IMG/VR virus record: IMGVR_UViG_3300014770_000007
Location: 1 to 39,589 of that record
Reading direction: 5' to 3' (one strand)
Origin: a virus
Lineage: Duplodnaviria > Heunggongvirae > Uroviricota > Caudoviricetes
DNA: 39,589 bases
The notes beneath the pieces were generated by a model. That model was given only the letters and a program-made list of their open reading frames with translations, did not search any database and had not been told where the DNA came from. The stretch's first letter is position 1. The number at the start of each line of letters is the position of its first letter. This document shows positions 38,234-39,343 of this stretch, piece after piece. The position numbers and the translations under genes were made by a program.

Positions 38234-38275
38234 ATTATCGGGGAGGTTTGGTAATCTGTCAAGAATTATTTTAAG
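38234..38275 (-). promoter_or_regulatory. promoter P10 of the conserved family (leftward)
   Basis: Minus strand: ccttaaaataattcTTGACAgattacc...-17 bp-GATAAT. Confidence 0.55.
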
Positions 38276-38666
38276 GATATGGAACCCACACAGTTAAACC
38301 AGCTTTCAACATGCGACGATGCATATCAGCAGTACCACGCCCACCGGGGAACACAACACCGTATGTAGGACGTGGCTCACCCTCTAACATCGCCTGATTA
38401 CGTTGATGACCTGCAACAGCGTTATAAGCCCCGTGCTTACCCTGTTTTACAACCGCACCAGGTACAGTCAGATCGTCCCACGCTGCCGGGCAACTACGCA
38501 CAGGAATACCGTGTAATTGCGCCCATTGCTTACACAGGTTATCAACACCTGACGCACCACCTTCAATTAGTTCGGTAACCGGAAATTGTTTGTGAAGTAG
38601 TCCTAACGCGGAAAACACTGCTGTTCTGTCGTTAAAGTCACGACCACCTGTGACGACAATTATCAT
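38271..38666 (-). CDS. DUF2493/YspA-type SLOG-like protein (tentative)
   Basis: 131 aa; IVVTGGRDF...EGGASGVD...FPGGRGT pattern of Rossmann-like SLOG/DprA-related small proteins; stop lies in UP element of P10. Confidence 0.55.
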   Translation of the reverse strand: MIIVVTGGRDFNDRTAVFSALGLLHKQFPVTELIEGGASGVDNLCKQWAQLHGIPVRSCPAAWDDLTVPGAVVKQGKHGAYNAVAGHQRNQAMLEGEPRPTYGVVFPGGRGTADMHRRMLKAGLTVWVPYP

Positions 38667-39343
38667 TGTTTATTAGCCTCAAATACAGCGCGAGCAAAAC
38701 CACGCGGGGTTAATGAACGTAACTGTTTAGTTGTTTCAGACTTACCACCCAGATATTTCCAGCCCCAGAAGAAACCAATATTAATCGGTCCAGGACGTTT
38801 TTCAGGCATTCTGAAACCGTTACCGAACCACAGACATGTTTTCTTCGTGTATCCGTCAAACATCGGCATTTTAGGGTGAAAAGGTTTATCATCTGTTGTC
38901 ATATAACCGCCATATTCCCACGGATGAAAATAAGCGTCAGGTGTCCCCATCATTTCAGGACGTGATAAAGCACCGACAGGGTTTTCGACCATCCAGGGTA
39001 CATCATAACGTTCTCCAAGTTCCCGGATTAGTTTTGCGTTTGCCAGTGCATACTGTAGTTCAGCGTCATCCCGGTCATGTTGTGAACCGCTTTGAGCAAA
39101 CAGGGTGCAATCCGGGAAACCAAAAATAATCGACGGTAAAGGTGTTCCCAGTATTTCCTGCTTAATTGCAAATTGTGGGTCAATCCACTGATTAACGTAA
39201 TGAAGATTGGGGTGATCAGCTTTAATAAAATATTCCCCGTGATTAGCGGAATCAGCATTAAAACAATAAACCTGATAACCATGTATCGCCCACGGTAAAC
39301 CCATAATCCCGGAACCGTCGAACAATGACCAGACAATTTTCAT
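38663..39343 (-). CDS. DNA (cytosine-5)-methyltransferase-like protein, short, no obvious target-recognition domain
   Basis: 226 aa; ordered motifs LFDGSG (motif I-like), FPDCTLFAQSG (motif IV-like with Cys), MVENPVG (motif VI ENV); AGGAGA RBS. Confidence 0.5.
   Translation of the reverse strand: MKIVWSLFDGSGIMGLPWAIHGYQVYCFNADSANHGEYFIKADHPNLHYVNQWIDPQFAIKQEILGTPLPSIIFGFPDCTLFAQSGSQHDRDDAELQYALANAKLIRELGERYDVPWMVENPVGALSRPEMMGTPDAYFHPWEYGGYMTTDDKPFHPKMPMFDGYTKKTCLWFGNGFRMPEKRPGPINIGFFWGWKYLGGKSETTKQLRSLTPRGFARAVFEANKQ

What the first reader, a model, noticed from the sequence alone, without database searches (positions are those of the whole stretch)
38271..39343. Short C5-methyltransferase-like protein paired with a SLOG-like protein
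The 226-aa ORF has C5-MTase-like motifs in canonical order (F-x-G-x-G, P-x-C, ENV) but is far shorter than typical cytosine-5 methyltransferases, leaving no room for a target-recognition domain. It is translationally coupled (ATGA) to a DUF2493/SLOG-like nucleotide-binding protein. The pair could be a DNA modification or nucleotide-processing module rather than a classical methylase.
Basis: partly seen in the sequence, partly recalled or inferred. Interest (0 to 1): 0.5.

Follow-up and report, generated by a model that had tools for sequence, protein, structure and literature searches.

The report
Known short phage cytosine methyltransferase
The 226-residue protein belongs to a large, already annotated family of compact phage DNA cytosine-5 methyltransferases, one member of which has been shown to methylate DNA, and the small nucleotide-binding-fold gene next to it is a neighbour only in this phage lineage, not a conserved partner.

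Summary
On the minus strand, a 226-aa ORF (38663..39343) overlaps a 131-aa DUF2493/YAcAr SLOG ORF (38271..38666) by ATGA. The 226-aa ORF carries FDGSG, FPDC and ENP(V) in the canonical order.

The window is a 9NA-like siphovirus (Sashavirus/Nonanavirus). Near-identical phages already annotate the gene as a cytosine methyltransferase.

It is 43% identical over its full length to phage KarlJaspers Dcm. A preprint on the near-identical K42 enzyme reports 5-methylcytosine formed on retron Ec86 msDNA and lost in a C82A/E128A/K175A/K176A mutant. Those residues align with C79, E120, K167 and K168 here.

A 28-residue variable loop sits where the target-recognition domain normally lies.

The proposed pairing fails. 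SLOG lies within 5 kb in only 5 of 80 methyltransferase loci, and the methyltransferase in 3 of 80 SLOG loci. Close relatives carry either gene alone, and 4-bp overlaps are routine in this operon.

Still open are the enzyme's sequence specificity and the SLOG protein's function. Interest is low.

The parts
38663..39343 (-). Gene for the 226-aa compact DNA cytosine-5 methyltransferase (PHROG 757 family; 'Dcm-like' in BASEL phage annotations)
39308..39322 (-). Motif I, F8-D-G-S-G12 (cofactor-binding glycine loop)
   Evidence: D9, G10, S11 and G12 are invariant in 35 relatives. This motif is less conserved in the wider family.
39104..39118 (-). Motif IV, F76-P-D-C79-T80, holding the predicted catalytic cysteine
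   Evidence: C is 99% conserved in 114 representatives. It aligns with C82 of KarlJaspers/K42 Dcm, which is mutated in the inactive K42 enzyme. hhalign places it on the FPCQ motif of E. coli Dcm, but weakly (E 0.026).
38978..38986 (-). Motif VI, E120-N-P122 (equivalent of ENV)
   Evidence: E 100%, N 96%, P 99% conserved. E120 aligns with E128 of K42 Dcm.
38828..38851 (-). Motif VIII equivalent, Y165-T-K167-K168-T-C-L-W172 (replaces QxRxR)
   Evidence: Y, K167, T169 and W172 are each 99% conserved. K167 and K168 align with K175 and K176 of K42 Dcm, which the preprint's authors assigned as substrate-binding residues.
38720..38803 (-). Residues 181-208: short variable segment at the position of the target-recognition domain, between invariant P180 and R209
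   Evidence: Most-common-residue frequency is about 0.1-0.35 over the core of this stretch in 114 representatives, flanked by columns conserved at 95% or more. It is modelled as a loop plus two short helices.
38684..38719 (-). C-terminal motif R209-S-L-T-P-R-G-F-A-R-A-V220 (resembles motif IX, RxLTPRE; forms the last helices)
   Evidence: R209, S210, T212, P213, G215, A217, A219 and V220 are invariant in 35 relatives. R is 95% and G 93% conserved in the wide family.
38663..38666 (-). ATGA: methyltransferase stop codon overlapping the SLOG start codon
   Evidence: Read directly from the sequence. The same overlap style occurs at 8 of 20 junctions in the operon of PDP46.
38271..38666 (-). Gene for the 131-aa stand-alone SLOG protein (DUF2493 / YAcAr family)
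38637..38648 (-). SLOG N-terminal glycine loop, G7-G-R-D10
   Evidence: G7, G8 and R9 are invariant and D10 is at least 90% conserved in 30 relatives.
38325..38348 (-). SLOG motif P107-G-G-R-G-T-A-D114. From my own knowledge, it resembles the LOG-family PGGxGTxxE motif.
   Evidence: G108, G111 and T112 are invariant. P107, G109, A113 and D114 are at least 90% conserved.
37432..38199 (-). Context only: downstream ParB-like gene (255 aa), conserved neighbour in all 9NA-like relatives examined
   Evidence: PF17762 ParB HTH E 2e-6. phrog_1033 E 3e-60. Present in PDP46, Bas82, Sasha and 9NA.

Best explanation
The 226-aa protein is a functional, stand-alone, S-adenosylmethionine-dependent DNA cytosine-5 methyltransferase of a compact phage family.

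Inferred mechanism: it is expressed from the early/replication operon and flips out a cytosine. Cys79 (FPDC) attacks C6, Glu120 (ENP) protonates N3, and Lys167/Lys168 take the role of the canonical RxR motif. A methyl group is transferred to C5. DNA is read by a 28-residue variable loop rather than a full target-recognition domain.

The most likely biological role is accessory protection of phage DNA against cytosine-sensitive restriction. The known cost is that such enzymes can trigger retron Ec86/Eco1.

The adjacent 131-aa SLOG protein is a separate accessory gene of the same operon. It is a predicted binder of nucleotides, nucleotide derivatives or single-stranded DNA, and its function is untested. 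It is not a subunit or obligate partner of the methyltransferase.

Shown here: fold, motif conservation, family membership, homology to the characterised enzyme, and lack of conserved linkage. Inferred: catalysis by this particular protein, its anti-restriction role, and its target sequence, which is unknown.

For: Family:
- phrog_757 'DNA methyltransferase', E 1.1e-78.
- 629 90%-identity clusters, nearly all 215-250 aa.
- 1,815 50%-identity clusters at E<=1e-3, with lengths mostly 200-260 aa among the 150 listed.
- Present in 1,491 of 50,697 phage records.
- 11 of 35 relatives touch PF00145, best E 3e-6.

Catalytic residues are conserved at 96-100%.

Experimental precedent: KarlJaspers bas06_0055 is 711 bp / 236 aa with C82, E128, K175 and K176. 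It is 43% identical to the query over its full length, E 2e-58. The K42 orthologue raised 5mC on msDNA by LC-MS and triggered retron Ec86, and the quadruple mutant did neither (bioRxiv 10.1101/2023.08.16.553469).

Independence from SLOG: 5 of 80 and 3 of 80 co-occurrence. Natural single-gene variants exist in 9NA and Bas82. A 50%-identical methyltransferase allele sits at the same locus in Sasha.
Against: - No experiment exists on this protein, and none on virion DNA of any 9NA-like phage was found in the library.
- The query itself misses Pfam PF00145 and NCBIfam entirely. A family profile finds no solved methyltransferase by sequence.
- In this subfamily the position that the wider family fills with Asp (74%) is Asn29. 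I read this as the motif II acidic residue. The active K42/KarlJaspers enzyme also has Asn there.
- The anti-restriction role is unproven. The BASEL study found no simple link between methyltransferase genes and restriction resistance in Drexlerviridae (PMC8594841).
- In the K42 work, CCWGG specificity was assumed from E. coli Dcm, not measured. The variable loop also differs between K42 Dcm and this protein.
Confidence: 0.78

Rival explanations
1. The methyltransferase and the SLOG protein act together as a two-gene module. SLOG might be a DprA-like DNA-binding or loading subunit that compensates for the missing recognition domain. Alternatively it might be a nucleotide-processing enzyme that turns 5mC into a further modification.
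For: - ATGA overlap and shared operon.
- The adjacency recurs in PJ16, PDP46, BDX09P1 and Sasha, and the two genes lie within 0.2-0.7 kb in Klebsiella-phage relatives L005-L008.
- SLOG's structural neighbours include the DNA-binding proteins DprA and ShosA.
Against: - Co-occurrence is confined to the nearest relatives: 5 of 80 and 3 of 80 loci.
- 9NA keeps the methyltransferase without SLOG, and Bas82 keeps SLOG with an unrelated 65-aa gene in the methyltransferase's place.
- K42 Dcm worked when expressed alone from a plasmid, and no SLOG or DUF2493 product is annotated in KarlJaspers.
- 4-bp overlaps are the norm in this operon.
Confidence: 0.05
2. The enzyme is active, but its substrate range is not that of a classical site-specific duplex-DNA methylase. 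With only a 28-residue reading loop it may methylate a very short or degenerate motif. It may instead prefer single-stranded or hairpin DNA or RNA, possibly acting as a DNMT3-like dimer.
For: - The best structural matches are DNMT3A/3B. From my own knowledge, these have small recognition domains and act as dimers.
- The variable segment is only 28 residues.
- In dcm-plus MG1655, msDNA that carries a CCTGG site had low 5mC until the phage enzyme was expressed. The phage enzyme therefore does something on that hairpin that host Dcm does not.
Against: - Mutating the CCTGG site in msDNA abolished defence, which is compatible with site-specific action.
- The TRD-position loop varies between subfamilies, as expected if it encodes differing specificities.
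Confidence: 0.14
3. The protein is a catalytically dead methyltransferase relic that now serves as a DNA-binding or regulatory protein.
For: - It misses Pfam PF00145.
- Motifs II, IV, VI and VIII all depart from the canonical consensus.
Against: - The catalytic Cys and Glu are conserved at 99-100% across about 1,800 clusters.
- A homologue with the same variant motifs is reported to be active.
Confidence: 0.03

Closest known systems
Phage K42 / KarlJaspers (Bas06) 'Dcm', the trigger of retron Ec86/Eco1 (bioRxiv 10.1101/2023.08.16.553469)
   Same: - Same family and length class: 236 vs 226 aa, 43% identity over the full length, E 2e-58.
- Same variant motifs: FDGSG, FP(P/D)CT, ENP, (F/T)KKT and RSLTPRGFARAV.
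- Both are stand-alone genes in the early region of a siphovirus.
   Different: - The loop between motif VIII and the RSLTP motif differs in sequence and length, so target specificity need not be the same.
- KarlJaspers is a T1-like Drexlerviridae phage with no annotated SLOG neighbour.
- Nothing has been measured for the protein in this window.
Mammalian DNMT3A/DNMT3B catalytic domains
   Same: - From my own knowledge, these also have a small recognition element.
   Different: - Only 12-15% sequence identity.
- DNMT3 domains are about 280 residues and sit within large regulated proteins.
- Whether the phage enzyme dimerises as DNMT3 does is untested.
Classical bacterial C5-methyltransferases (M.HhaI, M.HaeIII, E. 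coli Dcm; Pfam PF00145)
   Different: - The chains compared here are about 100-250 residues longer: 327-328 aa for HhaI and HaeIII, 472 aa for Dcm. From my own knowledge, the extra length includes a large recognition domain.
- Here 28 variable residues stand in its place.
- PCQ becomes PDCT, ENV becomes ENP, and QxRxR becomes YTKKT.
- The query fails the Pfam model.
SLOG superfamily, YAcAr/DUF2493 family (PF10686)
   Same: The 131-aa protein passes the curated threshold and has the SLOG fold.
   Different: - No member of this family has a demonstrated function in the literature I could reach. Published statements are predictions of NAD/ADP-ribose-derived ligand binding (PMC7824862).
- Fusions to SF1B helicase (ICP1 HelB) and to DciA are reported.

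Membership tests
DNA cytosine-5 methyltransferases (Pfam PF00145 class) | Class I methyltransferase fold with C5-methyltransferase topology | tested here: met
   [not shown]
DNA cytosine-5 methyltransferases (Pfam PF00145 class) | Motif I F-x-G-x-G cofactor loop | tested here: met
   F8-D-G-S-G12. D9 to G12 are invariant in 35 relatives.
DNA cytosine-5 methyltransferases (Pfam PF00145 class) | Motif IV Pro-Cys with catalytic cysteine | tested here: met
   F-P-D-C79-T, with one residue inserted between P and C in this subfamily and FPPCT in many relatives. C is 99% conserved. It aligns with C82 of K42 Dcm.
DNA cytosine-5 methyltransferases (Pfam PF00145 class) | Motif VI E-N-V | tested here: met
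   E120-N-P-V. E is 100% conserved. The third residue is Pro, not Val.
DNA cytosine-5 methyltransferases (Pfam PF00145 class) | Motif VIII Q-x-R-x-R | tested here: inconclusive
   It is replaced by Y165-T-K-K-T. K167 is 99% conserved. The K42 authors treat the lysines as the substrate-binding equivalents. The equivalence rests on a model superposition, not on a solved structure.
DNA cytosine-5 methyltransferases (Pfam PF00145 class) | Sizeable target-recognition domain between motifs VIII and IX | tested here: not met
   Only 28 residues (181-208) lie between invariant P180 and R209. They are variable in the family. This departure defines the compact subfamily.
DNA cytosine-5 methyltransferases (Pfam PF00145 class) | Score above the curated Pfam/NCBIfam threshold | tested here: not met
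   The query has no Pfam hit at E<=10 and no NCBIfam hit at E<=1. Eleven of 35 relatives hit PF00145 at E<=10, best E 3.1e-6.
DNA cytosine-5 methyltransferases (Pfam PF00145 class) | Formation of 5-methylcytosine in DNA | not testable with these tools
   Reported for the 43%-identical K42 homologue by LC-MS and lost in the C82A/E128A/K175A/K176A mutant. Not measured for this protein.
PHROG 757 (compact phage 'DNA methyltransferase' family) | Full-length profile match | tested here: met
   E 1.1e-78, 264.8 bits, residues 1-225 on profile positions 14-219 of 247.
SLOG superfamily, YAcAr/DUF2493 (PF10686) | Score above the curated threshold, and SLOG fold | tested here: met
   [not shown]
   SLOG is present in 5 of 80 methyltransferase loci. 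The methyltransferase is present in 3 of 80 SLOG loci. Single-gene variants exist in 9NA and Bas82.
Known anti-phage defence systems (PADLOC) | Match to any defence-system protein model | tested here: not met
   No hit for the methyltransferase, SLOG or ParB-like proteins at E<=0.01.

The most novel reading that the evidence does not exclude
The compact family, this protein included, may not recognise DNA in the way classical site-specific methylases do. With only a 28-residue reading loop it could methylate a very short or degenerate motif, or hairpin or single-stranded DNA. It might act as a DNMT3-like dimer. That would give broad protection from restriction and would explain why a retron uses its msDNA hairpin to sense it. 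The evidence here does not exclude this, because no member's specificity has been measured directly.
Probability: 0.2. Interest if true: 0.5.

Novelty: already known. Interest (0 to 1): 0.18.

Why it matters
As it stands, this is a correct but ordinary annotation. Near-identical phages already list the gene as a cytosine methyltransferase, the family has its own PHROG, and one member has experimental support.

The useful results are negative. The apparent methyltransferase-SLOG 'module' is an accident of gene order in one phage lineage, and ATGA overlaps in such operons should not be read as functional coupling.

Two small open questions remain and could be tested on these phages:
- Which sequence does a C5-methyltransferase with a 28-residue recognition loop read?
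- What does the widespread stand-alone DUF2493 SLOG protein do in phage replication modules?

Natural variants make the comparison easy: both genes (this phage, PJ16, PDP46), methyltransferase only (9NA), and SLOG only (KarinMuster Bas82).

Tried and rejected
- Sequence searches against solved structures found no methyltransferase. The single protein gave nothing and the family profile gave only a spurious E 0.61 hit. Fold comparison was needed instead.
- Pfam and NCBIfam gave no hit for the query.
- hhalign of the family profile against E. coli Dcm aligned only motif IV, weakly (E 0.026). It is too weak to carry weight.
- The 65-aa gene that replaces the methyltransferase in Bas82 is not a remnant of it (no alignment).
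- Neighbour clustering around 81 methyltransferase loci and around 80 SLOG loci found no partner shared across the loci. From my own reading of the cluster sequences, without a domain scan, recurrent SLOG neighbours resemble a dCMP-deaminase, a helicase, a nuclease, a sliding clamp and an adenine methylase. Each occurs in 13 or fewer of the 80 loci.
- CCWGG counts cannot settle specificity. The site is over-represented, not avoided: 69 observed against 39 +/- 6 expected.
- Literature searches for a measured methylome of any phage carrying this family found none. The Zeng et al. 2019 paper on 9NA-like phages is not held. The journal version of the Ec86 study is cited by held papers but is not itself held.
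- PADLOC gave no hits.

Full report
**1. What is in the sequence**

The finding lies on the minus strand. A 226-aa ORF runs 38663..39343 and a 131-aa ORF runs 38271..38666. The stop codon of the first and the start codon of the second share the four bases ATGA at 38663-38666. A ParB-like gene lies downstream at 37432..38199, and a 71-aa ORF lies upstream at 39340..39555, itself overlapping by 4 bp.

The 226-aa translation contains F8-D-G-S-G12, F76-P-D-C79-T80 and E120-N-P122-V in that order. It also has Y165-T-K-K-T169 and a C-terminal R209-S-L-T-P-R-G-F-A-R-A-V220.

**2. Where the window comes from**

Megablast places the region in 9NA-like siphoviruses (Sashavirus/Nonanavirus). It is 96% identical over 100% of 2,190 bases to Escherichia phage vB_EcoS_PJ16. 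It is 95.5-96% identical to Sashavirus BDX09P1 and Escherichia phage PDP46. In those records the two genes are already annotated as 'cytosine specific methyltransferase' and 'SLOG cluster4 family protein'.

**3. The 226-aa protein is a compact C5-methyltransferase**

Standard curated models miss it. There is no Pfam hit at E<=10 and no NCBIfam hit at E<=1, and no sequence-level match to any solved methyltransferase with either the protein or a family profile. The phage-specific library recognises it fully: phrog_757 'DNA methyltransferase', E 1.1e-78.

The family is large and uniform in length:
- 629 clusters at 90% identity, nearly all 215-250 aa.
- 1,815 clusters at 50% identity with E<=1e-3, of which 774 have E<=1e-10. 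The 150 best listed are mostly 200-260 aa.
- A tblastn match in 1,491 of 50,697 phage records.

The short length is therefore the stable state of a family, not a truncation. Eleven of 35 relatives touch PF00145 weakly, best E 3e-6.

**4. Conservation pattern**

In 114 full-length representatives of the wide family:
- The motif IV cysteine is 99% conserved.
- E-N-P is 100/96/99% conserved.
- Y, K, T and W of the Y-x-K-x-T-x-x-W block are each 99% conserved.
- The arginine of the RSLTP motif is 95% conserved.

Between invariant P180 and R209 lie 28 residues whose core is highly variable, with most-common-residue frequency about 0.1-0.35. This is where classical enzymes carry their target-recognition domain. 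'No room for a TRD' should therefore read 'a minimal, variable 28-residue loop in place of a TRD'.

One position is Asp in 74% of the wide family. I read it as the acidic residue of motif II. In this subfamily it is an invariant Asn29.

**5. Experimental precedent**

A preprint on retron Ec86 (bioRxiv 10.1101/2023.08.16.553469) reports the following:
- The authors isolated escape mutants of phage K42, which is 95.4% identical to BASEL phage KarlJaspers. All of them disrupted a 711-bp 'dcm' gene.
- Expression of that gene alone was toxic only in cells carrying Ec86.
- LC-MS showed high 5-methylcytosine on msDNA with the wild-type enzyme, but not with a C82A/E128A/K175A/K176A mutant.
- Their AlphaFold model superposed best on DNMT3A.

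I retrieved KarlJaspers. Gene bas06_0055 is exactly 711 bp and encodes 236 aa. Its translation has Cys82, Glu128, Lys175 and Lys176 at those numbers. It aligns with the window protein over the full length at 43% identity, E 2e-58, placing those residues on C79, E120, K167 and K168.

The window protein therefore belongs to a family with a member reported to methylate DNA at C5. The journal version of that study is cited by other held papers but is not itself held.

One caveat applies. The CCWGG specificity quoted there was carried over from E. coli Dcm and supported only by mutating the msDNA site. It was not measured, and the variable loop differs between K42 Dcm and this protein. The target of the window enzyme is unknown.

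**6. The 131-aa protein**

It passes the curated threshold of PF10686 (YAcAr, 'YspA, cpYpsA-related SLOG family'): 70.5 bits against 28.2. It has 806 homologous clusters, and the 120 listed are mostly stand-alone proteins of 113-150 aa in phage-sized and bacterial contigs. It conserves G-G-R-D near the N-terminus and P-G-G-x-G-T-A-D near the C-terminus.

No function has been shown for this family. Published statements are predictions of NAD/ADP-ribose-type ligand use (PMC7824862). Fusions to an SF1B helicase in ICP1 and to DciA have been reported.

**7. Is the pair a module?**

Four tests say no.
- Of 80 viral-contig loci that encode the compact methyltransferase, a SLOG profile finds a hit within 5 kb in only five. 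All five are the nearest relatives, at 69-97% identity.
- Of 80 viral-contig loci that encode the SLOG protein, the methyltransferase profile finds a hit in three. Two are close relatives of this window, and one is a weak hit on the opposite strand.
- Within the 9NA-like group every combination occurs. Both genes are present in this window, PJ16 and PDP46. Sasha has both genes followed by an HNH endonuclease, with a methyltransferase allele about 50% identical (as measured in its close relative Sergei). 9NA has the methyltransferase only. KarinMuster Bas82 has SLOG only, with an unrelated 65-aa gene in the methyltransferase's place that also overlaps SLOG by 4 bp.
- The ATGA overlap is the house style of this operon. 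In PDP46, 8 of 20 consecutive junctions are 4-bp overlaps and 3 more overlap by 8-14 bp.

Neighbour clustering found no gene shared across the loci of either family. In addition, K42 Dcm acted when expressed alone, and KarlJaspers has no annotated SLOG gene.

**8. Most likely mechanism and role**

The protein is most likely an active S-adenosylmethionine-dependent DNA C5-methyltransferase made early in infection. Cys79 would be the nucleophile, Glu120 the proton donor, and Lys167/Lys168 the replacement for the RxR motif. The 28-residue loop, perhaps with help from oligomerisation as in DNMT3, would read DNA.

The usual role proposed for such orphan phage enzymes is protection from restriction. 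That remains an inference. The BASEL authors found no simple relation between methyltransferase genes and restriction resistance in Drexlerviridae. The only 9NA-like phage they tested, Bas82, lacks the gene.

The patchy presence, allele replacement and loss at this locus fit an accessory gene under fluctuating selection. That would include counter-selection by retrons that sense it.

The SLOG protein is best described as an independent accessory protein of the replication-region operon that binds nucleotides or single-stranded DNA. Its function is unknown.

**9. Verdict**

The identification of both proteins is supported, and the proposed functional pairing is not. The feature is already annotated in near-identical genomes and belongs to a family with experimental support, so novelty is 'already known' and interest is low.

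The residual open points are the sequence specificity of a C5-methyltransferase with so small a reading element, and the role of DUF2493 proteins in phages.

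Noticed in passing
window 38234-38262 (minus strand): A near-consensus sigma-70-like promoter (TTGACA, 17 nt, GATAAT; 11 of 12 matches) lies in the 72-bp gap between the SLOG stop codon and the ParB-like start codon. This suggests the ParB-like gene may have its own promoter. The total number of promoter-like sites in the region is not above chance. In PDP46 and Bas82 this gap holds an extra 231-bp gene that is absent here.
   Followed up: partly
window 38663-39343 compared with L167 (Sasha), L168 (9NA), L002 (Bas82): The methyltransferase slot is a mosaic hot spot among otherwise about 96%-identical phages. It holds alleles at about 99%, 90% and 50% protein identity, or no methyltransferase at all. 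An HNH endonuclease gene, or a fragment of one, lies next to it in Sasha and 9NA.
   Followed up: partly
window 34981-35604 (minus strand): A 207-aa ORF in the same orientation carries an HD_4 domain (PF13328, E 5e-15). From my own knowledge, this is the RelA/SpoT-type hydrolase domain. The orthologue is annotated 'RelA/SpoT family (p)ppGpp synthetase' in PDP46 and 'metal-dependent phosphohydrolase' in Bas82, so it may be a phage alarmone hydrolase.
   Followed up: partly
whole window: CCWGG, the E. coli Dcm/EcoRII site, is over-represented rather than avoided: 69 sites against 39 +/- 6 in dinucleotide-preserving shuffles, and none of 100 shuffles reached 69.
   Followed up: no
window 38421-38474 (SLOG residues 65-82): The SLOG protein carries an 18-residue insertion, modelled as a beta-hairpin. 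Only about a third of the aligned family members share it, and most relatives lack it.
   Followed up: no
window 39257-39259 (methyltransferase residue N29): Residue 29 is an invariant Asn in this subfamily but Asp in 74% of the wider family. I read the position as the acidic residue of motif II. The experimentally active K42/KarlJaspers enzyme also has Asn, so the substitution is compatible with activity.
   Followed up: partly
L086-L165 (viral loci encoding DUF2493 SLOG proteins): From my own reading of the cluster sequences, without a domain scan, recurrent neighbours of stand-alone SLOG genes resemble a dCMP-deaminase (13 of 80 loci), a DEAD/SNF2-type helicase (11), a nuclease (8), a DNA polymerase III beta clamp (7) and a DPPW-motif adenine methylase (7). 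The SLOG-matching ORFs range from 90 to 374 aa, and the longer ones suggest fusions.
   Followed up: no
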